64,000 nucleotides of DNA from a virus. Taxonomy: Duplodnaviria > Caudoviricetes. The stretch spans positions 228 to 64,227 of IMG/VR virus record IMGVR_UViG_3300044799_000048. The stretch is one strand, 5' to 3'. A program made the position numbers and the translations under genes. Positions 46,750 to 56,232 of this stretch are shown piece after piece (position 1 is the first letter of the stretch; every line of letters begins with the position of its first letter). A model generated the notes under the pieces. The model ran no database searches and was not told where the DNA came from. It was given only the letters and a program-made list of their open reading frames with translations.

Positions 46750-47430
46750 TCATGTTTGTCTACTTACTGCAATCAATTCTTCACACTCACGGACGCTCTT
46801 CGATAAGAGTTCCTCGGGAAGATAATGGGCGCGATACTCTGTGCCAGAACCAGCCCCGGGGCGAATCGTGTCGTAATGCTTCACTAACTGCTCACGTTCC
46901 CCTCTTGATTTCAAAAGTAGGTTTAGGTGAAATAGGTGAACACTTTCAAGTTCGCACGTTTCGCCGTATATAGCAGGCGTTGTATGGATAACTGGCGCTT
47001 GGTTTAAAGAGTTTTTCCGAAATAAACGCACCTGATAATCCGGGTATAATGGCCAGGTAGACAAATAGTGATTCATTTCGGCTCCGACCACATTATATCT
47101 TGGAAGCCAACACGCCGCCTGTGGCAAGTCAAGTATTTCCTGTTTCATTTCTACAAATCTGGTTCCTAAAAGCTCGTCGTCGTCTACGCGTAAGCACCAA
47201 GGATAATGCGCCAGCGAGTAAGCATAGTTCAAGACTGGTTCAACATAACCCGGTGTCTCTATAAACTCAACACGATTAGCGTACTGCTTACAAATGTCGT
47301 AAGTGTTGTCGCTAGATGCGCGGTCAACCAAAATAATAAGTTCGTCCGCATAGAGTTGTGTCTGAAGAAGCAATCTCTCTACCCAACGGGAGGAGTCTTT
47401 TGTGATGATAACAACACTGAGCTTCTTCAT
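46750..47430 (-). CDS. Glycosyltransferase family 2
   Basis: LSVVIITKD...ADELIILVD..SSDNT...WCLRVDDDE...YPDYQVRLFR. Confidence 0.9.
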   Translation of the reverse strand: MKKLSVVIITKDSSRWVERLLLQTQLYADELIILVDRASSDNTYDICKQYANRVEFIETPGYVEPVLNYAYSLAHYPWCLRVDDDELLGTRFVEMKQEILDLPQAACWLPRYNVVGAEMNHYLSTWPLYPDYQVRLFRKNSLNQAPVIHTTPAIYGETCELESVHLFHLNLLLKSRGEREQLVKHYDTIRPGAGSGTEYRAHYLPEELLSKSVRECEELIAVSRQT

Positions 47431-47434
47431 AGGT

Positions 47435-48835
47435 TCAATAACTACTAAAGCAACGTTTACACAATGGCAGTTCCTTCTTCTTACCTGCTATATGCTTTGC
47501 TCTCAGTTTCTCAAAAAGACGCCCACGCCAAACTTGGGAAACGTTGTTCTCAAACACATTGCCAAGCGTCATTTCTGCATTCCAATCTTGACAACACATT
47601 ACCACCTGCCCGTCGGTGTGGACTATTAAATTTTTGAACGGTTGGTGACACGGAAGATCGTCGCTCGCATCCATGAGAGCACCCTTGCCATCTCTGTTCT
47701 CACGCGGAACCCAAGTAAGAAGCACTCCATTTCCGCCCCACACTTTAGGCATCAACGGTATTTCGTGAATGTTCTCAGCTTGGGCAACCATATGTATTCT
47801 GACTTCACACTTGCCCCCCGCTTCTTCAATGAATCCGTGGACGTTCCTATAAGTCTGATCGAAGTTCAACCCAAGGCGAATTTTCTCATACGTCTCTTTA
47901 GTAGCGCCATCAATACTGAAAGCAATAGACTTCAACCCTGCATCAAGTAGTCCCCTTGCGCGCTCCCTAGTCATCAATGAACCGTTAGTAAAGAAAAACG
48001 CATTCGCACCATGTTTAGTTATATACTCGACACGTTCTTCCAAACACTTGTCAATCAGGGGTTCGCCGTATTGGGCCAGATTGAAGAACCTTGTGCCCAT
48101 ATCAACCGCCTCATCTACCACCCGTTGAAAGTTAAGTTGTGGCATATAGGATAGACGGGAGATTCGCTCGTGCGGGCACATGATGCAACGTGCATTGCAT
48201 AGGCTTGTAACTTCACAGTTAACAGATTCAAGTTCTACCTTGGTGTCAAACACCTTCGCCGTATTTGCCGGGATAAGTTTAGCGATATCAAGATCGCTGA
48301 ATCCCTTCACAAATACTACGATGTTATTCTTGTAGTAGTTCGCCGCGATGCTGATGTGCCCTATCCTAGATCGCAGGCAATCTACTAACTCAAATCCATG
48401 TTTCTCGAAACGTTCTTTCCAGTAAGAAAGAGGTTGTAGGTTGATGTGGTTCTCACCGACTTGCCCTGGGGGAGCAGCGGAAAATACAATAACATTCGAC
48501 GCGTTACAAAGAATAGACACCAACTGCTCCCCCGCCGACTCAGATAGATGCTCTGCTGTTTCCAGAGACATCGCCATATCAAATTTACGGTCAAGTGTGA
48601 ATGGTTGTTCAAGGTCTGCAAGGATGTGCGGAACGATTGGTTTTGCCCACGGCCCATCTATCCCAAGTACATCTATTCCACCTTGCATGAAAACTTGTAA
48701 CCATAGTCCCTGTCCACAACCAACATCCAAAATAGAAGACGGGTGGAAAAGTTTCACAATAATAGGAACGATCGCTTGCGCCGAACAGAACGAGTCCCCC
48801 GCATTTTCTCCATAGAACTGTTTGTCATAACTCAT
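47435..48835 (-). CDS. SAM methyltransferase fused to a radical SAM / SPASM(Twitch) domain
   Basis: ILDVGCGQG...SLETAEH; CNARCIMC (CxxxCxxC), YGEP, TNG, SIDG; CHQPF...DGQVVMCCQD...CKRC. Confidence 0.9.
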   Translation of the reverse strand: MSYDKQFYGENAGDSFCSAQAIVPIIVKLFHPSSILDVGCGQGLWLQVFMQGGIDVLGIDGPWAKPIVPHILADLEQPFTLDRKFDMAMSLETAEHLSESAGEQLVSILCNASNVIVFSAAPPGQVGENHINLQPLSYWKERFEKHGFELVDCLRSRIGHISIAANYYKNNIVVFVKGFSDLDIAKLIPANTAKVFDTKVELESVNCEVTSLCNARCIMCPHERISRLSYMPQLNFQRVVDEAVDMGTRFFNLAQYGEPLIDKCLEERVEYITKHGANAFFFTNGSLMTRERARGLLDAGLKSIAFSIDGATKETYEKIRLGLNFDQTYRNVHGFIEEAGGKCEVRIHMVAQAENIHEIPLMPKVWGGNGVLLTWVPRENRDGKGALMDASDDLPCHQPFKNLIVHTDGQVVMCCQDWNAEMTLGNVFENNVSQVWRGRLFEKLRAKHIAGKKKELPLCKRCFSSY

Positions 48836-49302
48836 GGGATTTTCCTGAGAAGAAAGTGAAGGCCATGCTCAAGAACCGCTTCTGATTTTATGATGTGAAA
48901 CCGGCACGATGAATAGTGAGGCAATAACTGGCACAGGAGTCTGTCGGGATCAAAGTAGTCCATCGAGAGATAGGTGAAGAACATAGTATGTGTCGGGTCT
49001 ACAAAAGCCTGGGCGGTCGTGGCGTCTGGAACTTGACAGGCAAACTGTCCGTTGGGAACTAAGACACGCCAAACCTCTTCCATCACTTCAATGAAAGAAC
49101 CAGATGTAAGATGCTCAAGACTATCGCGCATAACAATCGCTTCTGCTGTACTGTCAAGCCAAGGCCAGGGTTTCTTGTTAAGATCGCATTGAAGAAAGTC
49201 CTTGCCCTCGACGCGTTCTGGAAACCTAACTCTTATATCTACCTTGTCAACGTTGAGAAAGTCATCCAGAAGAAGAATGCCACATCCAAGATTAAGTTTC
49301 AT
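48832..49302 (-). CDS. Class I SAM-dependent methyltransferase
   Basis: KLNLGCG...NVD...LEHL...MEEVWRVL.PNG...DPTH. Confidence 0.9.
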   Translation of the reverse strand: MKLNLGCGILLLDDFLNVDKVDIRVRFPERVEGKDFLQCDLNKKPWPWLDSTAEAIVMRDSLEHLTSGSFIEVMEEVWRVLVPNGQFACQVPDATTAQAFVDPTHTMFFTYLSMDYFDPDRLLCQLLPHYSSCRFHIIKSEAVLEHGLHFLLRKIP

Positions 49303-49625
49303 GAAAGTTTCACTTCATTCACATGAAATGGGGCGTGTTCAGGACAATAACACCTGGCGTTATCATCACATTCAAGATCGCCACCTTCTGAGTCCTCAAT
49401 ATCAAAAAAGCCCCACTTTAAATCAGGCCAGAGTATAAGTTTGGGGGTCACGCGTTTTCCCATACCATCAATGAATAACCAATCTTCCCATTTGCTAGCA
49501 TCTTCTTCGTCGTAACTAGTAAGATTGTCGATGAAATCTGGATATGGCCCGCACCTATCATCATCGCAAACCCAAGTATCAGTGTCTTCATCATCACTGC
49601 CACCAGAACTCCAACCATGTCCCAT
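49299..49625 (-). CDS. Acidic Cys-containing hypothetical protein
   Basis: CDDDRC ... CYCPEH; AAGGAG RBS. Confidence 0.55.
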   Translation of the reverse strand: MGHGWSSGGSDDEDTDTWVCDDDRCGPYPDFIDNLTSYDEEDASKWEDWLFIDGMGKRVTPKLILWPDLKWGFFDIEDSEGGDLECDDNARCYCPEHAPFHVNEVKLS

Positions 49626-49636
49626 GTTATTCTCCT

Positions 49637-50836
49637 TTAACTCAACCAGCGTTCTGTTTCAGATTCGGAGTCAATCTTCTCTTGAAGAAGTGCGAGGGCC
49701 GGCACCCACGATTCCATTACGACTTTATCCGCATCCCAATTTAGGGCGTGTTCGCGAGTCTCTACTTTCATCTGCTCCCACACCGAATTGGCATTCTCTT
49801 TTAGATAATATGCTTCAAGAATCTTATCGGCTAGTTGTTCATCACTCACAACCGCTTGATAGGAGTGGTCATCTGGACAAATTACACGACTCACTGGTTC
49901 GAGAAGCCAACCATAGGTAATCTCAGTCATCGCCGTGTAGTTGGTTGCAATAACCGGAACGCCACACGCATTCGCCTCAAGGATAGGAAGTCCAAACCCC
50001 TCACCGCCGCTTGGCAGAATGAGAATGTCCATTGCGTTGTAGAGTTGAGCCATCTCCTCGCGCTGGAACCCAAGATGAAAGTTCTTAGGGCTTGTCATCG
50101 AAACGAAGTCGGCAACCCCGTTCTGCGTAATGAGGAACTCAAGGTTCAGTCCAGTAGGTGTTACTTTCGGAGCATGGAGTAGGAGTTTAATTTCAGGAAT
50201 CTTATCTTTCAAAAGCGCAATGGCATGGAAGGCCCGCTCGATTCCCTTACGGTAGTCCATATTTGCCGCGACCATTCCCACGACAAACTTGCCATCAACA
50301 CCCAGATTCTTCTTGATGATGTCTTTGTCACATGGAGTTCCATCGGGAAGAACGGTAAGCGGTTTGAAAATATTCGTGTCAGTACAAAGCGGGACAACGG
50401 TTAGGTTGTGAAATCCCTTATCTTCAAGGGCTTTCTTGGCATCTTGACACCACGGCCACAACCAGTAGGCAGTCTTGATAGAACTCGCAACCCTAACAGA
50501 GAGTGGGTGGCGGTCAATCGGAAACCACGGAACCCACCTGACACCCTTGCGAATACCGAAGGATGCAGGGATAGGCCATGCATCCCAATGAGTGATAACA
50601 ATGTCGGGGTGAAGCATGTCGGTATAGAACTCAATCACCGAATCACAGGACTGATCGAAGTCAGACCGATGCCAGCAGTCGAAATTTTCCCAAGTAGCCT
50701 TGGCACCCTCGACCCCATAATTACAGAGAAAGGTAATTTTATGTCCCAATTCCCTAAGACGCGGGGCTACAAACGAAGGAGTGGTTGCGTAGGAGCCGCT
50801 ACTCCACGGCGAATTACACACTAAAAGCAGGTTCAT
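49637..50836 (-). CDS. Glycosyltransferase family 4 (GT-B fold)
   Basis: NSPW..GSY; AANMDYRKG; LYNAMDILILPSGGEGFGLPILEANACGVPVI. Confidence 0.92.
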   Translation of the reverse strand: MNLLLVCNSPWSSGSYATTPSFVAPRLRELGHKITFLCNYGVEGAKATWENFDCWHRSDFDQSCDSVIEFYTDMLHPDIVITHWDAWPIPASFGIRKGVRWVPWFPIDRHPLSVRVASSIKTAYWLWPWCQDAKKALEDKGFHNLTVVPLCTDTNIFKPLTVLPDGTPCDKDIIKKNLGVDGKFVVGMVAANMDYRKGIERAFHAIALLKDKIPEIKLLLHAPKVTPTGLNLEFLITQNGVADFVSMTSPKNFHLGFQREEMAQLYNAMDILILPSGGEGFGLPILEANACGVPVIATNYTAMTEITYGWLLEPVSRVICPDDHSYQAVVSDEQLADKILEAYYLKENANSVWEQMKVETREHALNWDADKVVMESWVPALALLQEKIDSESETERWLS

Positions 50837-51589: not shown

Positions 51590-52120
51590 CTAGTACGTGT
51601 ATTCCAGTGTCAACATCATGACAGGAACCAACGTGCCAGAGGTCGCTGTGCTTCGGTTGAAGAACAGCGGATACGTAGCGGGAACAGTCCCCAGAGGAGT
51701 CACCGTACTGATGGAACCCATGCTCGTCTTAACGCCACCGACCAAGGTGCCGGCTGTACCAGTGTATGTGAACGGTGTCCCATAGGGAGTAACCGTTCCA
51801 GCAGTAGTACACGTCACTAGATCGTAAGCGTTGTACGACACGGCCGCACTAACGACGTTAGATGCAGCGGTGAGATAGGCGCCGGTCAGTACAATGGCCT
51901 TCGGTTTGACAAACAACGGAAGTCCAAGAACTCCCGCCGCGCCACTCGGAATGTAGAACTGTTCCGTGACCTTGTTGTTCGAGACTGTCTCCCCACCAGC
52001 TTCTAGGATTGCCTTGATTTCAGCGAGGTGTTGGTCAGCACAGACGTGCGGGCCAGTCCCACTGAATTCGTAGCCTAGAACCTTGGCGGTGATTGTCCCG
52101 GAGGTTGTGAAAGTTGCCAT
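51590..52120 (-). CDS. Capsid decoration-like protein, paralog B
   Basis: Downstream of the capsid gene; near-identical N-terminus to 52129-52662. Confidence 0.65.
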   Translation of the reverse strand: MATFTTSGTITAKVLGYEFSGTGPHVCADQHLAEIKAILEAGGETVSNNKVTEQFYIPSGAAGVLGLPLFVKPKAIVLTGAYLTAASNVVSAAVSYNAYDLVTCTTAGTVTPYGTPFTYTGTAGTLVGGVKTSMGSISTVTPLGTVPATYPLFFNRSTATSGTLVPVMMLTLEYTY

Positions 52121-52128
52121 GTTACCTC

Positions 52129-52662
52129 CTAGTAAGTGTACTCCAAAGTCAACAGGATGTTGGAGGTAGTTACGCCCGAACCAGCCGTACCCTTCTGATA
52201 AAACAGGGGATACGTCGCGGGAACGGTGCCCAATGGAGTCACTGTGTTCAACGAACCCATCGAGGTCTTTACCCCACCAACCAACGTGCCCGCAGTCCCG
52301 CCCGTATAAGAGAACGGTGTCCCATACGGCGTAACAGTTCCAGCCGTAGTGAACGTCACAAGACTGTGAGTGCAGTAGTTGTCAGCGTGCCCAACGATAT
52401 TGGCCGCGGCCGTGATGTAAGCGCCGGTCAACACGATAGCATGGGGTTTGACAAAGAGGGGTTGACCGATGTTAGCAGCAGCCTGGCCAAGAACGTAGAA
52501 CTGTTCAGTCACCTTGTTAGCCGAAACGGTTTCGCCACCGGCCTCCAAGATAGCCTTGATCTCAGCCATGTGCTGATCGCCACACACATGCGGCCCCGTG
52601 CCAGAAAACTCGTAACCAAGAATCTTAGCTGTGATCGTTCCAGAGGTAGTAAATGTAGCCAT
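52129..52662 (-). CDS. Capsid decoration-like protein, paralog A
   Basis: Immediately after the capsid stop; MATFTTSGTITAK.LGYEFSGTGPHVC. Confidence 0.65.
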   Translation of the reverse strand: MATFTTSGTITAKILGYEFSGTGPHVCGDQHMAEIKAILEAGGETVSANKVTEQFYVLGQAAANIGQPLFVKPHAIVLTGAYITAAANIVGHADNYCTHSLVTFTTAGTVTPYGTPFSYTGGTAGTLVGGVKTSMGSLNTVTPLGTVPATYPLFYQKGTAGSGVTTSNILLTLEYTY

Positions 52663-52673
52663 TATACCACCCC

Positions 52674-55308
52674 CTATCCCAGACTAACGCCGTGGCGAAT
52701 CGCAACCATGAAGTCCTGGTTGAGAATCTTTGCCACGAACGTAGTCTTCCAGCCGATGCTTCCGCGCTGATTCAAGGGATCCTCAGCGCCGCCGCCACCG
52801 ACCGGTTTGATAATCATCGACACGGGATTGACCTTCTTGCCAGTGCCAGACGAATCGCCGCCAGCCGTTGTAGCTGGAACCGACCCGAACATGTCACCAG
52901 CGAGACCGCCGATACCGTAGGCATTCTTGCCCAGGATCAACGTGGTCATCACACGTTCCGAAGATGTATTCGCCACAAGACCCAAGTCAGTCGCCCGACT
53001 CGACACGTACCAGTCAACTCCAAGCCACGTCGCAAACTTGTACGTCGCGAGAGGATTGTTCTTGCCAGGCTCGGTCGCATACAGGGCCGTGTTGATGAAT
53101 GTACTGTCCTGCATGAGGTCAAATTTTGTCTTCGGATGTATGATTCCCACGTAGTTCGCGCCCTGGATCGGACGCGCGTTGTTGGTTTCCAACGTAGACA
53201 ATGCTTCCATTACTTCAGCCGCCGTCAGCGTCATCGTTCCACGAAGTGTATCGTTCGTGGTGGCGGTGGAGGCGTACTGAATTGTGGTCGCCGCGGCTAG
53301 GATGGCGCGAGTCAGTTCGTCTACTGTTAAACCAGCCTGCTCCGACCTGTTACTTTCTAACCATCGTGATTTGACAAGATTTGAGTTCTATGATATACTT
53401 GGTGATAATACATTATGGAGGTGTTTCATGAACGTGTATGGGCGTCCAAGAAAGTGGCATATCCCCACGCGAGAACAATTGTATCAGGATTATCTTGTTG
53501 ATCGTCTGTCTATTGATGAACTAAGAGATAAGTGGGGTTGCTATGAAAGTTGGGTAAAGAAATTGGGAATTCCCCTTCGGGGGTATCCAGTGAAAGATGT
53601 ACAACGCAAACGATTTACACCCTCACAACTACAAATTGTGTATGGTGTCGTTCTTGGTGACGGTTATCTAAACATCCCCAAGGGATGTAGGTGGCCGCAA
53701 CTTTCCATAGAACACTCTGTATTACAAGAAGAGTATGTTATCTGGTTAAGAGAAAAACTCGAACCATTCTCTGGAAAGTTAGAACGATATGCCGCACGCC
53801 AAAATGTGTATAAAGGAAGAACCATCTTTGGTAAGGGGTCTGTTAGGTTTAGAACGTGTGCCCATCCGGAACTATTACCAATCTATGAAGAATGTTATCC
53901 GAATAAAGTACGTCATATTACCGCGGAACACTTAGAAAAGATGGATGCGCCGGCAGTTGCGGTTCTATTCATGGATGACGGATGTAATAGCGATCTAAAT
54001 AAGGGTATTTGTTTTTCAACCGGAGAACATCCTATTGAAGAACAACGTATCCTATCAGATTGGTTTCTTTCTCAGTGGGGCCTTGTTAATACTATTAGAC
54101 ACCAAAAAGAATGCGGGTATCGCATTACATTCTATGGGAAAAGTGCAAGGGGACTATTAAGTTTGATTGAGCCATACATAGCACCAAGTATGCTATACAA
54201 ATTACACGGTGGCGGGTAGTCAATTTCTGCTACCTCTTACAGTTCGTTTCCTGTAAGTCCAGATCATCGTTTCACCTTACGGTGTCTTCTCGCTTGATCG
54301 TTGCTGCTGCACGCTTTCGCTGCTTGCATCGGGTAACCATCACAGGCGTTCCCGTTATTCAGAGAAGATTTAGGCTCGGCAAATTAGTTTATTCGGCTAC
54401 CGAGCAACTCACTCTCCTCGGTCACAATAGGATCGATGGACAGTTTGTCGATCAGGTCACTGTGCTGAATCCACGCGCCGTACTGATCTACGGTAGCGGT
54501 GATCGCGGTCGGGCTGATACTCACGCCGATGGGGGTCACGCCTTCGGAAAGGGGCGTGGTCGCGACCGCGAGAGAACCAAACTTCAATCTGTTACTTTAG
54601 GATTTGCATATTCTCAAGAATTGTGTTATGATAGTCAATCAATGGAGGTGTTTATGGTTTCAGAAACTTATTTTGTCATAACGTGTAAAAACTGCGGACA
54701 CGAGGCCCACAAACCAATGGGTAGTTGGCACGATGCAGAAGTATCCGTAGAACGAGGCGGCTGGAAATTTGTCCGTGGTGCTAAATCCCTTACTGGTGAT
54801 TGGTATTGTACCAATTGTCTAAGGGAGGCGGATTCTGCTGAAGATTATGCCATTCGGTGTGGATGGATGAAACCGCCGCGCCCATCATTCTGGAAACGTA
54901 TCGGTGCAGTCTTTTTTGATTGAATATGCAAACGGGTAGCCATTTCTGCTACCTCTCCACCTTCAAATGTTATACGTGGAGTTCAGAGCACATCATCATC
55001 CTTACGGATGTCTCGTCTATGCTCGTTACGCACTTCCCTTTCGGGGTTGGTTCGGTATTGCCCACTCCTGGGTGTCCACCGAGTTAGCGAGATTTTCAGA
55101 TACCGTTTCCGGTATAGGCCGCTAGTTATTAACGGAAGTTAACTGTAAGACCCTGATGGTCGGGAATCTGGAAGGAGCGGCCCTTCTGACCGAACTGGGC
55201 ATGAACCAAGTTCGGAAGGGCACGTTCCAAGAGAGTCTTGTCATAAAACGCTGCTACCTGTTCGGCACTCCAGCCTGAAGCGCCATAGGTCTGTGTAGTT
55301 GTTGCCAT
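52674..55308 (-). CDS. Major capsid protein, N4-gp56-like; three exons 55308-55132, 54584-54399 and 53342-52674 (343 aa spliced)
   Basis: In-frame joins give ...YDKTLLERALPNLVHAQFGQ...TVNFR|KFGSLAVATTPLSEGVTP...QYG...SELLG|EQAGLTVDELTR...HP....DL...DPLNQRGSIGWK; exons of 177, 186 and 669 nt; GGAGG RBS; follows the scaffold gene. Confidence 0.92.
53371..53399 (+). promoter_or_regulatory. Antisense sigma70 promoter inside intron 2
   Basis: TTGACA-17 nt-TATACT with TGn extension; GGAGGTG RBS before ATG 53428. Confidence 0.8.
53428..54219 (+). CDS. LAGLIDADG homing endonuclease, antisense to its intron
   Basis: QIVYGVVLGDGYL and AVAVLFMDDG motifs; HTH-like N-terminus; 263 aa from the RBS-supported ATG. 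Confidence 0.9.
   Translation: MNVYGRPRKWHIPTREQLYQDYLVDRLSIDELRDKWGCYESWVKKLGIPLRGYPVKDVQRKRFTPSQLQIVYGVVLGDGYLNIPKGCRWPQLSIEHSVLQEEYVIWLREKLEPFSGKLERYAARQNVYKGRTIFGKGSVRFRTCAHPELLPIYEECYPNKVRHITAEHLEKMDAPAVAVLFMDDGCNSDLNKGICFSTGEHPIEEQRILSDWFLSQWGLVNTIRHQKECGYRITFYGKSARGLLSLIEPYIAPSMLYKLHGGG
54604..54632 (+). promoter_or_regulatory. Antisense sigma70 promoter inside intron 1
   Basis: TTGCAT-17 nt-TATGAT with TGn extension; GGAGGTG RBS before ATG 54654. Confidence 0.65.
54654..54923 (+). CDS. Small zinc-finger protein (89 aa), antisense cargo of intron 1
   Basis: CKNC...GW...WYCTNC; strong RBS; no LAGLIDADG, HNH or GIY-YIG motif visible. Confidence 0.75.
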   Translation: MVSETYFVITCKNCGHEAHKPMGSWHDAEVSVERGGWKFVRGAKSLTGDWYCTNCLREADSAEDYAIRCGWMKPPRPSFWKRIGAVFFD

Positions 55309-55317
55309 GAAATCCTC

Positions 55318-56013
55318 CTAGAGGTCAGAGGCAGGCAACCCCCCTTGTTTTCCACGTTGAATCACGAGGTCGCGTTCTTCGTGTGTCATACTGTCCCACT
55401 TTGCCATAATGCCAGAAGCGGGTGCCCCCTGTCTGTTAAGTGAAACCTTGGGGGCCTGCGGAGGTGCCTGCGTGCGTAGTCTGTTTGATTCGCGCATGTA
55501 TTCTGTAATGAACCGCCCCAACTCCTGCGGGCTTGAAGCGTGTGACTCTGCTTCTGCACGAGAGATACCGACGGACATGGCGGCCTGAATAGACCGCTGT
55601 TGTTCTTCGTATCCCCTGCGCTCAGCTTCCTGGGCCTGCATTCGCTGATTCAGTTGTGCAATTTCATTGTCGCGTTTCTGTAATTCGAGTTGAAAGTCGT
55701 ATGCCTTCTTCTGATCCGGCTCCATACCGGCCGTTTCAAGTTTGTACAACTTCTCCTTATCAGCAAGCATTTCCTGATTCATCTGCTGGATATAGGCGTT
55801 GTACTGTGCCTGAAGATCGGCTTGACGGCGCTGTTCAGAAGCGCGAACGGCGTCCAAGTCCTTACGCGGGACAAGCGGCTCATCGCTAGGCGTAACGGCG
55901 GGCGTCGGTTCTACAACCCCACCTCCCTGATCGGGCGTCGTCTCTACAACCGGTTCTTCTACTGGCGCTTCTACAACCCCGGGGGCACCTGCAACTGCAT
56001 TTGTATCTACCAT
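55318..56013 (-). CDS. Capsid scaffolding protein
   Basis: Acidic Pro-rich N-terminus and coiled coil; immediately upstream of the capsid gene. Confidence 0.7.
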   Translation of the reverse strand: MVDTNAVAGAPGVVEAPVEEPVVETTPDQGGGVVEPTPAVTPSDEPLVPRKDLDAVRASEQRRQADLQAQYNAYIQQMNQEMLADKEKLYKLETAGMEPDQKKAYDFQLELQKRDNEIAQLNQRMQAQEAERRGYEEQQRSIQAAMSVGISRAEAESHASSPQELGRFITEYMRESNRLRTQAPPQAPKVSLNRQGAPASGIMAKWDSMTHEERDLVIQRGKQGGLPASDL

Positions 56014-56028
56014 TGTATTGTTCTCCTT

Positions 56029-56232
56029 CTATCTCTTCGTACTTAGTTCTGCCAACTTACTGTTCAGATAGGGCATGTCAAGTTTCAATGTCTCGCGAAA
56101 CTCAACTAGGCCAATTGCCTTGCCCTCTTCGATTCTAATCGAGCAGTTTCCATACCAAATATCCGACAAACGAGAAACTTCATTGAGAACCGCTGCCCAT
56201 TGCAGAAGCTTCTTTTCATCCATTGCGTCCAT
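56029..56232 (-). CDS. Small DUF2292-like protein
   Basis: YGNCSIRIEEGK...ETLKL; GAGGA RBS. Confidence 0.45.
   Translation of the reverse strand: MDAMDEKKLLQWAAVLNEVSRLSDIWYGNCSIRIEEGKAIGLVEFRETLKLDMPYLNSKLAELSTKR

What the first reader, a model, noticed from the sequence alone, without database searches (positions are those of the whole stretch)
52674..55308. Major capsid gene split by two related group I introns, each with a self-promoted antisense gene
Seen in sequence: the capsid ORF breaks at 55132 and 54399. Both breaks follow a U paired to G in a P1 helix and resume after a terminal G. Removing the 547-nt and 1056-nt segments restores a contiguous 343-aa N4-gp56-like capsid. The introns share 3' architecture (P8 GUAA hairpin, GAGGUAGCAGAAAU..CUACCCG, AAAGUAACAG). 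In both, the last P9 loop holds an ORF on the opposite strand, with a TTG-17-TAT promoter and the shared RBS block ATGGAGGTGTTT. Established: phage group I introns mostly sit in DNA-metabolism genes (td, nrdB, nrdD, pol), and their endonuclease ORFs are usually, though not always, in the same sense as the intron. Inference: this is an intron family with an exchangeable antisense expression cassette. It could express cargo early from host-type promoters, independently of the late capsid transcript, while capsid production requires two splicing events.
Basis: partly seen in the sequence, partly recalled or inferred. Interest (0 to 1): 0.88.

Follow-up and report, generated by a model that had tools for sequence, protein, structure and literature searches.

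The report
Capsid gene with two backwards-cargo introns
A phage coat-protein gene is interrupted by two related self-splicing introns, each with a gene on the opposite strand; this layout is already known from mycobacteriophage LittleE and many uncultured phages, so it is a well-documented example rather than a new kind of element.

Summary
Removing 55131..54585 (547 nt) and 54398..53343 (1056 nt) joins three minus-strand exons into a 343-aa N4-gp56-type capsid protein. This aligns without gaps across both joins with 12 intronless homologues.

Rfam's group I model does not hit the window. However, both inserts belong to a group I intron family found in 38 viral contigs:
- Its core (P3-P9, with the P3/P7 pseudoknot) has strong covariation: 95% of cells paired, 33 of 42 pairs with compensatory change.
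- An ORF-less close relative of intron 1 passes RF00028.
- A model built without the window's introns finds both.
- The family model also finds the LittleE capsid intron, which has been shown to splice.

Intron 2 carries an antisense LAGLIDADG gene. Intron 1 carries an antisense 89-aa zinc-ribbon orphan. Both have sigma-70-like promoters and share a 5' leader. In the family, 16 of 16 ORFs in this loop are antisense LAGLIDADG genes with a conserved promoter.

This scan has noted the same layout before, in at least 36 other genomes. There is no RNA evidence. Verdict: new member of a known kind; the orphan cargo is the only unusual part.

The parts
55132..55308 (-). Capsid exon 1 (59 codons, ends ...VNFR)
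   Evidence: An in-frame TAA follows directly in the intron.
54585..55131 (-). Intron 1, group I, 547 nt. P1 to P9.1 lie at 55131..54931, then P9.2 with its cargo, then the tail AAAGUAACAGAUUG.
   Evidence: Hand fold. Model R1 scores 76.7 bits. Leave-out model R2 scores 47.8 bits, E 1e-12. Its homologue L024 passes RF00028 at 56.2 bits.
54931..55097 (-). Intron 1 catalytic core, P3 to P9.1. P7 is GAGCA/UGCUC, a compensated variant of the family's GACUA/UAGUC.
54603..54932 (.). Intron 1 P9.2: an 11-bp perfect stem (54603-54613 with 54922-54932) that encloses the antisense cassette
54603..54632 (+). Sigma-70-like promoter of the intron 1 cargo (TTTGCA-18-TATGAT, or TTGCAT-17-TATGAT, with TG before the -10)
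   Evidence: 9 of 12. On its own it is weak: 63 of 500 shuffles reach the same score.
54642..54653 (+). Shared leader/RBS block ATGGAGGTGTTT before the intron 1 ORF
54654..54923 (+). Antisense 89-aa ORF, CxxC...CxxC zinc-ribbon-like, orphan
   Evidence: (only sub-threshold zinc-ribbon hits).
54399..54584 (-). Capsid exon 2 (62 codons, KFGSL...ELLG)
53343..54398 (-). Intron 2, group I, 1056 nt. P1 to P9.1 lie at 54398..54211, then P9.2 with the endonuclease gene, then the tail AAAGUAACAGGUCG.
   Evidence: R1 scores 126.4 bits. Leave-out R2 scores 92 bits, E 6e-26. The MFE fold recovers P1, P3, P4/5, P6, P8, P9 and P9.1.
54211..54373 (-). Intron 2 catalytic core, P3 to P9.1. P7 is GAUCA/UGAUC.
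53428..54219 (+). Antisense double-motif LAGLIDADG homing endonuclease gene (263 aa). Its stop codon lies inside the 3' strand of P9.1.
   Evidence: Pfam LAGLIDADG_2, 1.2e-21. phrog_11023, 8e-13. The motifs VVLGDGYL and LFMDDGC both keep their acidic residue.
53371..53399 (+). Sigma-70-like promoter of the endonuclease gene (TTGACA-17-TATACT, TG before the -10)
   Evidence: 11 of 12. 0 of 500 shuffles reach this score.
53415..53426 (+). Shared leader/RBS block ATGGAGGTGTTT before the endonuclease ORF
52674..53342 (-). Capsid exon 3 (222 codons plus stop)
   Evidence: phrog_1357 major head protein, 1.8e-25. Homologues are named N4-gp56 family and carry PF25209.

Best explanation
The major capsid gene (N4-gp56 / Phage_capsid_4 type, minus strand) carries two group I self-splicing introns. 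Both belong to the RNA family that includes the capsid intron of mycobacteriophage LittleE. They sit in phase 0 at two of the most conserved capsid motifs (NFR|KF and LLG|EQ).

Inferred splicing: the late capsid pre-mRNA folds each ribozyme. An in-frame stop 0 or 4 codons into each intron keeps ribosomes out. Guanosine attacks after the U of the P1 U.G pair, the exons are ligated after the terminal G, and two such events give the 343-codon mRNA.

Inferred cargo expression: each intron holds a plus-strand gene in the P9.2 loop. That gene is read from its own sigma-70-type promoter and a shared GGAGG leader, independently of capsid transcription.
- Intron 2's gene is a double-motif LAGLIDADG endonuclease. 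It presumably cuts intronless capsid alleles of co-infecting phages and drives homing.
- Intron 1's gene is an 89-aa zinc-ribbon orphan of unknown role. It is either cargo that replaced a nuclease gene or a remnant.

Shown here: the exon joins, family membership, covariation of the core, the identity of the LAGLIDADG gene, and conservation of the antisense promoter layout in relatives.

Inferred only: splicing itself, promoter use, timing, homing, and that the 89-aa ORF is expressed.
For: Exon joins
- The joined product has 343 aa and shows no gap at either join against 12 of 12 aligned homologues (homologues).

Family and structure
- The P9.1 motif is found in 38 viral contigs.
- In a MAFFT alignment of 29 cores (A1), RNAalifold finds P3, P4, P5, P6, P8, P9 and P9.1, with compensatory change in 30 of 39 pairs.
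- With P7 added, 95.1% of 1212 cells pair, against 34-44% when the partner is slid. 33 of 42 pairs change on both sides, and 0 of 500 shuffles reach this.
- The P7 closing pair covaries CG 16 / GC 9 / AU 4. Introns 1 and 2 carry compensated P7 variants.
- RF00028 passes its gathering score on L024/L041, the ORF-less close homologue of intron 1, with the same P1 to P9 assignment (2 of 20 loci hit).
- Model R2, built without the window's introns, finds both over its full length and nothing else in 64 kb.
- Model R1 finds the LittleE capsid intron at 56.8 bits, E 8e-16. Splicing of that intron was shown by RT-PCR and N-terminal protein sequencing, and it has a bottom-strand LAGLIDADG-like ORF (Pope 2013, PMC3706429, passages read; record checked).

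Cargo
- Intron 2's ORF is LAGLIDADG_2, 1.2e-21.
- 16 of 16 related P9.2 ORFs are antisense. 16 of the 18 ORFs in alignment A2 match LAGLIDADG_1 (A2 = those 16, the window's ORF and one L012 ORF).
- 0 of 8 sense-strand shadow ORFs tested has a Pfam hit.

Promoters
- All 16 relatives have a site scoring 9 of 12 or better. The -10 ends 6 nt (12 cases) or 7 nt (2 cases) before the ATG, while the spacers vary.
- The window's two sites score 11 of 12 and 9 of 12.
- The two leaders share the RBS 12-mer and a CAAGAnTTGnGTT..TATGATA block.

Intronless alleles
- Full-length intronless homologues exist (P0007, P0009, P0010).
- P0006 appears broken at the intron 1 site only.
Against: - Rfam RF00028 gives no hit on the window at the gathering score, at E up to 10, or in the whole 64-kb record. 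It hit only 2 of 20 family loci.
- No splicing was observed.
- Part of the R2 score, above all for intron 1 (47.8 bits), comes from the 21-nt P9.1 motif that was used to collect the family. That part is not independent.
- The A1 structure was derived from the same alignment, and many rows are close kin. The shuffle and slide controls therefore overstate significance.
- Intron 1's P1 has only four exon pairs. A P10 is weak for intron 1 and not evident for intron 2.
- Promoter matches are consensus matches only. The region has no excess of them. Intron 1's site is reached by 63 of 500 shuffles.
- The -35 element overlaps an RNA segment (AGUCAA) that ORF-less relatives L034 and L040 also keep. 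Its conservation may therefore serve the RNA rather than the promoter.
- The 89-aa ORF has no homologue among 5.8 billion or 1.84 billion proteins, and its model is poor (pLDDT 55).
Confidence: 0.85

Rival explanations
1. The 89-aa ORF in intron 1 is not a gene. It would be a chance open frame, or the decayed remnant of a lost endonuclease cassette whose promoter and leader survive.
For: - No homologue other than itself was found. The five other hits are long repeat proteins matched over short stretches.
- No PHROG matches, and Pfam gives only sub-threshold zinc-ribbon hits.
- The structure model is of low confidence.
- The I1-like relatives seen have only a short ORF-less P9.2 hairpin (L024, L097, L080).
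- The promoter match is individually weak.
Against: - The intact 89-codon frame begins at an ATG 5 nt after a GGAGG, within a 12-nt block identical to that of the bona fide endonuclease gene.
- It stops exactly at the closing stem.
- It has two CxxC pairs 37 residues apart, and the predicted beta hairpins fit a zinc ribbon.
- The language-model 'recognition' value is in the range of real proteins. That tool states this value does not prove a gene.
Confidence: 0.35
2. The inserts no longer splice, or never did. The capsid gene would then be dead, or made as separate pieces, in a defective phage.
For: - There is no Rfam hit on the window.
- There is no RNA evidence.
- The record is estimated to be 59% complete.
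Against: - All core helices are intact in both introns, with compensated P7 variants.
- The exons remain in frame and conserved.
- Close relatives at 84-90% identity appear to keep the same break (P0002 to P0004 start at the same internal Met).
- A family member splices efficiently in vivo.
Confidence: 0.05
3. The main role of the antisense units is regulatory. Plus-strand transcripts would run on into the ribozyme cores and exon 2, pair with the capsid pre-mRNA, and delay or throttle splicing and capsid synthesis until late.
For: - No plus-strand terminator-like site was found after either ORF in 52400-56200, so read-through into the antisense of the core and exon 2 is possible.
- The endonuclease ORF overlaps P9.2 and P9.1.
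- Antisense orientation is kept throughout the family.
Against: - This is inference only. The terminator scan is a simple pattern search.
- Antisense orientation is equally explained by uncoupling endonuclease expression from a very highly expressed late gene, and by keeping ribosomes off the ribozyme.
- LittleE makes abundant capsid protein despite having the same layout.
Confidence: 0.1

Closest known systems
Mycobacteriophage LittleE major capsid gene intron with gene 14 (Pope et al. 2013, PMC3706429; record JF937101)
   Same: - It belongs to the same RNA family: model R1 scores 56.8 bits, E 8e-16, over the full length.
- It has the same CAGAAAUGA P9.1 loop and AGUAACA tail.
- It sits in a major capsid gene.
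- It carries a LAGLIDADG-type ORF on the opposite strand after P9.1.
   Different: - LittleE has one intron, the window has two.
- Its capsid protein is not detectably related.
- Its ORF is LAGLIDADG_3, single-motif size at 177 aa, whereas intron 2's is LAGLIDADG_2 at 263 aa.
- No non-nuclease cargo is reported for it.
- Splicing is shown for LittleE and not for the window.
Capsid-gene group I introns of uncultured phages with antisense LAGLIDADG_1 genes
   Same: - The core and the P9.1 motif are the same.
- The capsid family is the same, Phage_capsid_4 type (below cut-off).
- The antisense ORF sits in P9.2 with a sigma-70-like promoter next to the intron tail.
   Different: - They sit at a third site in the capsid gene (after ..NG, before DNP..).
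- Their mRNAs look leaderless: the -10 ends 6-7 nt before the ATG in 14 of 16. The window's two genes have 21-28-nt leaders with GGAGG.
- Their sense strand carries a long shadow ORF, which the window's introns lack.
MCP introns of crAss-like Delta/Zeta phages (Yutin et al. 2021, PMC7886860)
   Same: They have several group I introns with endonuclease domains in one major capsid gene, up to five gene fragments (passages read).
   Different: They are a different phage group. The passages read do not describe RNA family or ORF orientation, and I made no comparison.
[quoted passage not shown] 2010, PMC2988022)
   Same: They are phage group I introns whose endonuclease ORFs sit in peripheral loops and are read from their own promoters (passage read).
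   Different: Their ORFs are in the sense orientation, belong to the GIY-YIG or HNH families, sit in nucleotide-metabolism genes, and use phage middle and late promoters.
Didymium iridis rDNA intron with I-DirII, and L2066 nuclear rDNA introns
   Same: The homing endonuclease gene is antisense to the group I intron and is driven by its own promoter (Edgell 2011, PMC3073962, passage read; PMC9548176, listing only).
   Different: They are eukaryotic nuclear rDNA introns with His-Cys box enzymes, Pol II promoters, spliceosomal introns and polyadenylation.

Membership tests
Group I intron | 5' splice site after a U that forms a U.G wobble pair in P1 with an internal guide sequence | tested here: met
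   Intron 1: CCGU|UA pairs with UAGCGG. Intron 2: GCUCGGU|A pairs with UGCCGAGC. The MFE fold recovers intron 2's P1. Rfam draws the same P1 for intron 1's homologue L024.
Group I intron | Intron ends in G (omega G) and removal restores the reading frame | tested here: met
   Both introns are in phase 0. Each junction can slide by 1 nt without changing the protein.
Group I intron | Conserved core P3-P4-P5-P6-P7-P8-P9 with a P3/P7 pseudoknot, supported by covariation | tested here: met
   33 of 42 pairs have a change on both sides, and 95.1% of cells pair against 34-44% when slid. Caveat: the structure was derived from the same alignment and the rows are related.
Group I intron | G-binding site: a G-C pair in P7 next to a bulged nucleotide | tested here: inconclusive
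   All 29 rows have G108-C163 after a single unpaired base (A in most, C in introns 1 and 2 and in L024), flanked by the covarying pair 106-164. Function was not tested.
Group I intron | Match to Rfam RF00028 at its gathering score | tested here: not met
   There is no hit on the window at the gathering score or at E up to 10. The score is met by L024/L041 at 56.2 bits. The experimentally spliced LittleE intron scores 30.7 bits against the 50-bit cut-off, so the model is insensitive to this family.
Group I intron | Guanosine-dependent self-splicing | not testable with these tools
   No RNA run holds the stretch. Family member LittleE splices in vivo (paper).
LAGLIDADG homing endonuclease (intron 2 ORF) | Two LAGLIDADG motifs with the catalytic acidic residue, and a profile match above the cut-off | tested here: met
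   PF03161 scores 77.9 bits against a cut-off of 25. The motifs ..LGDGY.. and ..FMDDGC.. align with the motif columns of the 17 other ORFs in A2.
LAGLIDADG homing endonuclease (intron 2 ORF) | Cleaves the intronless allele at or near the insertion site | not testable with these tools
Intronless homologues exist.
LittleE-type capsid intron with antisense endonuclease gene | Same ribozyme family, with an ORF after P9.1 on the opposite strand | tested here: met
   for the RNA. for the position and strand of the ORFs.
N4-gp56 / Phage_capsid_4 major capsid protein | Full-length alignment to family members and a profile match | tested here: met
   One search gives the alignment. Exon 3 matches phrog_1357 at 1.8e-25. 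Homologues carry PF25209 and the source name 'N4-gp56 family major capsid protein'. The separate exons give no Pfam hit above the cut-off. The joined protein was not scanned.
HNH or other known nuclease (intron 1 ORF) | Profile match or catalytic motif | tested here: not met
   Pfam gives only zinc-ribbon hits below the cut-off. No PHROG matches. There is no similarity to intron 2's protein.

The most novel reading that the evidence does not exclude
The P9.2 loop of this intron family would be a portable antisense expression site with its own promoter, whose cargo can be exchanged. In intron 1 it would have been re-used, with the same leader as the neighbouring endonuclease gene, for a non-nuclease zinc-ribbon protein. 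A capsid intron would then act as a vehicle for an accessory (moron-like) gene read by the host polymerase, possibly one that binds nucleic acid and affects homing, splicing or the host.
Probability: 0.25. Interest if true: 0.6.

Novelty: new member of a known kind. Interest (0 to 1): 0.4.

Why it matters
- Annotation: gene callers report this capsid gene as a 186-aa fragment (P0001). Relatives are truncated in the same way. Rfam misses the family, including its experimentally proven member. A family-specific covariance model such as R1 would repair capsid annotation in many uncultured phages.
- Biology: the window adds a case of two family-related introns in a single capsid gene. It also adds the first cargo I saw in this slot that is not a recognisable nuclease. 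That bears on how intron-borne cassettes are exchanged, and on why the antisense orientation with its own promoter is kept.
- Limit: the general layout is already in print (LittleE) and was noted repeatedly by this scan, so the finding extends a known kind and does not open a new one.

Tried and rejected
Searches that gave nothing useful
- Rfam on the window: gathering score, E up to 10 on 52400-55600, and RF00028 over the whole record gave no group I hit. I reject this as a refutation because the proven LittleE intron is also below the cut-off.
- blastn of the whole region against the phage records: no match.
- The search for related loci with exon 3: viral contigs and metagenome contigs gave only 38-39% identical capsids. 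Genome contigs gave none. The close relatives P0002 to P0006 could therefore not be read as DNA. What I say about their breaks is inferred from protein ends alone.
- 89-aa ORF: Pfam, PHROGs, word-index search, atlas, exhaustive HMMER, comparison with intron 2's protein and a single-sequence AlphaFold model (pLDDT 55). None gave a family. I ran no fold search because the model is too poor.
- Search for the tail-plus-RBS cassette in viral contigs: one chance hit inside a coding region, with no intron model match there.
- tblastn of the intron 2 endonuclease against phage records: 9 distant hits at 27-34% identity, none in a capsid gene by annotation. I did not follow these up.

Sequencing runs
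- No RNA holder is listed.
- Laying the two DNA runs showed one contig identical to the window (X1, which may be its source) and a 225-nt piece over exon 3 (X2). No contig joined across either insert. This says nothing on expression or on intronless alleles.

Literature
- Six searches were run.
- They produced no paper describing antisense endonuclease genes in phage introns, and the Hausner 2014 review has none of the words antisense, orientation, opposite or capsid.
I then checked it in the paper and in the GenBank record.
- Supplementary files of papers were not consulted.

Readings considered and rejected
- Inteins: rejected because stop codons lie in all frames of the inserts.
- Group II introns: rejected because there is no reverse transcriptase and the sizes and core do not fit.
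- A mirror ORF on the sense strand, as in the relatives: absent in the window.


Full report
WHAT IS THERE

On the minus strand, a capsid reading frame starts at 55308 and stops at a TAA directly after 55132. It resumes at 54584, runs to 54399 and stops four codons later. It resumes again at 53342 and ends at 52674.

Joining the three pieces in a script gives 343 codons with no internal stop. I aligned this product with 12 full-length homologues picked from the 55 hits of a search with exon 3. It shows no gap at either join (VNFR|KFGSL and ELLG|EQAGL); the closest intronless proteins, P0007, P0009 and P0010, are about 50% identical over exon 3. Exon 3 matches the PHROG 'major head protein' phrog_1357 at 1.8e-25. 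The homologues carry PF25209, and where a source names them they are called 'N4-gp56 family major capsid protein'.

ARE THE INSERTS GROUP I INTRONS?

Rfam says nothing. There is no RF00028 hit at the gathering score, at E up to 10, or over the whole 64,227-base virus record that the window comes from.

Hand folding of both inserts gives the group I order of helices:
- P1 has the splice-site U opposite a G (intron 1: CCGU|UA with UAGCGG; intron 2: GCUCGGU|A with UGCCGAGC).
- Then follow P3, P4-P5, P6, P7, the 3' strand of P3, P8 with a GUAA loop, the 3' strand of P7, P9, P9.1, a long P9.2, and a tail AAAGUAACAG plus four bases ending in G.
- An unconstrained fold of the 5' 213 nt of intron 2 recovers P1, P3, P4/5, P6, P8, P9 and P9.1 (z = -2.3).
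- The fold of intron 1 recovers P2, P4, P5, P6, P8, P9 and P9.1, but not P3 (z = -3.4).

The P9.1 motif shared by the two introns occurs in 38 viral contigs, and the flanks show an obvious family. I removed 5 duplicate rows. I also removed 7 rows in which other sequence lies upstream of P7. I then aligned the remaining 27 cores together with introns 1 and 2 using MAFFT (A1).
- RNAalifold predicts P3, P4, P5, P6, P8, P9 and P9.1, and 30 of its 39 pairs show compensatory change.
- With the P7 pseudoknot added by hand, 95.1% of 1212 cells form standard pairs, against 34-44% when the partner is slid by 1-3 columns. 33 of 42 pairs change on both sides, and none of 500 shuffles reaches the observed values.
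- The pair that closes P7 next to a single bulged base covaries as CG 16, GC 9 and AU 4.
- Intron 1 has GAGCA/UGCUC and intron 2 has GAUCA/UGAUC where the family has GACUA/UAGUC. This probably explains why Rfam, which scores P7 by sequence only, misses them.

Caveats: the structure came from the same alignment, many rows are close kin, and P9.1 is invariant because it was the search pattern.

Three further links tie the window's inserts to established introns.
1. L024 (identical to L038 and L041) is an ORF-less intron of about 290 nt. It matches intron 1 helix for helix, with the same P1 and P4 and fully compensated P2, P3, P7 and P9. It passes RF00028 at 56.2 bits against a cut-off of 50. Only 2 of the 20 family loci scanned were hit, and both carry this same sequence.
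2. A covariance model built without introns 1 and 2 (R2) finds exactly these two places in the window over its full length: 92 bits (E 6e-26) and 47.8 bits (E 1e-12). Part of that score, which matters most for intron 1, is the shared P9.1 motif.
3. The family model R1 finds the major capsid intron of mycobacteriophage LittleE at 56.8 bits, E 8e-16, over its full length. Pope et al. 2013 (PMC3706429; passages read) showed by RT-PCR and N-terminal sequencing that this intron is spliced out in vivo. Rfam gives the same intron only 30.7 bits, so a miss by RF00028 carries little weight for this family.

A second pattern, taken from intron 1's P4-P5, occurs in 98 viral stretches. Among them is L097, which shares intron 1's unusual P7.

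I conclude that both inserts are group I introns of one family. Splicing itself was not observed.

THE GENES ON THE OTHER STRAND

Intron 2 holds a plus-strand ORF at 53428..54219. It matches LAGLIDADG_2 at 1.2e-21 and a PHROG of LAGLIDADG homing endonucleases at 8e-13. Both motifs keep their acidic residue. Its stop codon lies inside the 3' strand of P9.1.

Intron 1 holds a plus-strand ORF at 54654..54923. It encodes 89 residues with two CxxC pairs, and an 11-bp perfect stem encloses the whole cassette. This protein has no relative:
- A word-index search of 5.8 billion proteins found only itself.
- An exhaustive HMMER search of 1.84 billion representatives found only itself plus five weak hits to long proteins, matched over short stretches; the two I scanned with Pfam (P0057, P0059) are repeat or low-complexity proteins.
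- Pfam gave only sub-threshold zinc-ribbon hits, and PHROGs gave nothing.
- A single-sequence model has pLDDT 55, with two beta hairpins that fit a zinc ribbon.

I rate it about two in three that this is a real gene. The reasons are an intact frame, an ATG 5 nt after GGAGG, and a stop at the edge of the stem.

IS THE ANTISENSE LAYOUT AN ACCIDENT OF THIS GENOME?

It is not. In 16 distinct family loci the loop after P9.1 holds an ORF of about 270-415 codons on the antisense strand, with AGY(I/L)DGDGCF and LAGFIDAECC motifs.
- 16 of the 18 ORFs in alignment A2 match LAGLIDADG_1. A2 consists of those 16, the window's ORF and one ORF from L012.
- Of the equally long sense-strand frames I scanned 8 of 16, and none has a Pfam hit.
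- I saw no Pfam-supported sense ORF in P9.2. The two sense LAGLIDADG ORFs, in L018 and L033, begin beyond the tail of the first intron.
- LittleE's bottom-strand gene 14 matches LAGLIDADG_3.

The same slot and orientation therefore hold at least three LAGLIDADG Pfam families and one non-nuclease orphan.

PROMOTERS

The scan tool reports TTGACA-17-TATACT at 53371-53399 (11 of 12, with TG before the -10) and TTTGCA-18-TATGAT at 54603-54632 (9 of 12, with TG). Both are on the plus strand, 28 and 21 nt before the start codons. The region as a whole shows no excess of such sites: 6 found against 4.2 +/- 1.7.

The comparative evidence is stronger.
- All 16 relatives have a site scoring 9 of 12 or better between the intron tail and the ATG.
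- The -10 ends 6 nt before the ATG in 12 cases and 7 nt before it in 2.
- One case has a second ATG 6 nt further on, and one has a 17-nt leader with an SD-like element.
- The hexamers are kept while the spacers differ.

This looks like a conserved promoter for leaderless mRNAs. Per-sequence shuffles are not impressive: 0 to 63 of 500 reach the same score. The -35 element also overlaps an RNA segment that ORF-less relatives keep, so part of the conservation may serve the ribozyme.

In the window the two genes instead have leaders with GGAGG. The 12-mer ATGGAGGTGTTT occurs only at these two places in 64 kb, where 0.21 occurrences are expected. The two leaders also share a CAAGAnTTGnGTT..TATGATA block, although the proteins are unrelated. 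A search for tail plus RBS block in viral contigs gave only a chance hit, so this leader is known from this genome alone.

HOW IT MOST LIKELY WORKS

Steps that are shown:
- the exon joins;
- membership of the intron family;
- the identity of the endonuclease gene;
- the conserved antisense layout.

Steps that are inferred:
1. The late capsid transcript folds both ribozymes.
2. Ribosomes stop at the TAA that lies 0 and 4 codons into the introns.
3. Two guanosine-initiated splicing reactions give the capsid mRNA.
4. The host polymerase reads the plus-strand genes from their own promoters, independently of late transcription.
5. The LAGLIDADG enzyme cuts intronless capsid alleles of co-infecting phages at the conserved LLG|EQ coding sequence, and repair copies intron 2 into them.
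6. Intron 1 has no recognisable nuclease of its own.

Evidence consistent with mobility:
- Intronless homologues exist.
- P0006 begins exactly at the intron 1 site and runs through the intron 2 site.
- P0002 to P0004 (84-89% identical over exon 3) begin at the same internal Met as the window's truncated product.

All three points are inferred from protein ends only.

WHAT IS KNOWN, AND NOVELTY
- Capsid-gene introns are in print for LittleE, which also cites Tuc2009, and for crAss-like phages, with up to five fragments of one MCP gene (Yutin 2021).
- An antisense LAGLIDADG ORF in such an intron is described for LittleE.
- Antisense endonuclease genes with their own promoter are known in nuclear rDNA introns of Didymium (Edgell 2011).
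- Intron ORFs with their own promoters, in the sense orientation, are known in T4.
- This scan has already noted the same layout in 42 findings from at least 36 genomes. One of those notes gave me the LittleE lead, which I then checked myself.

The window is therefore a new member of a known kind. Its particular points are:
- two family-related introns in one capsid gene;
- a shared leader on unrelated cargo;
- an orphan zinc-ribbon ORF where relatives carry a nuclease gene or nothing.

LIMITS
- There is no RNA evidence of any kind.
- E-values from my models are rough.
- Supplements of the cited papers were not seen.

Noticed in passing
window 51590-52120 and 52129-52662 (minus strand): Directly downstream of the capsid gene lie two tandem paralogous genes of 176 and 177 aa. 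Both begin MATFTTSGTITAK and are Thr/Gly-rich. The one scanned (52129-52662) gave only a weak PHROG hit of unknown function. They may be decoration or fibre proteins.
   Followed up: no
proteins P0003 and P0004 (close relatives of exon 3): Their sequences follow the window's capsid up to ..QRG(S/T)IG and then diverge into unrelated residues that the two share (..LADVKLPKFGETL..). This looks like read-through into a further insertion at a site that is uninterrupted in the window.
   Followed up: no
protein P0006: This 50%-identical capsid homologue is called from MKFAPLAV.., exactly at the intron 1 insertion site. It runs uninterrupted through the intron 2 site. This suggests independent presence or absence of the two introns among relatives.
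   Followed up: partly
loci L007, L010, L013, L015, L019, L032, L036, L043 (intron P9.2 regions): Opposite the antisense LAGLIDADG genes, the intron-sense strand stays open for about 280-320 codons with no Pfam hit. Earlier notes of this scan report the same 'mirror frame'. The window's two introns do not have it.
   Followed up: partly
L051 and L122 (and L076): Other introns that share intron 1's P4-P5 motif carry, in the P6 region, a sense-strand TTGACA-17-TATAAT-like site followed by AGGAG and an ATG. These would be sense-oriented intron ORFs with their own promoter.
   Followed up: no
L024 / L038 / L041: The ORF-less closest homologue of intron 1 sits after ..DSP (TCCGT|) in a gene whose downstream part weakly resembles Phage_cap_E (E 0.004). 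The same intron subfamily, with the same guide sequence, therefore seems to occupy an unrelated capsid family.
   Followed up: partly
L144 (LittleE genes 15-18) and window 46750-50836: LittleE has glycosyltransferase and methyltransferase genes right after its intron-bearing capsid gene. I did not examine it.
   Followed up: no
window 53428-53620 (plus strand): The intron 2 endonuclease has an N-terminal extension of about 65 aa before the LAGLIDADG_2 domain, which starts at residue 69. The extension has no family match.
   Followed up: no
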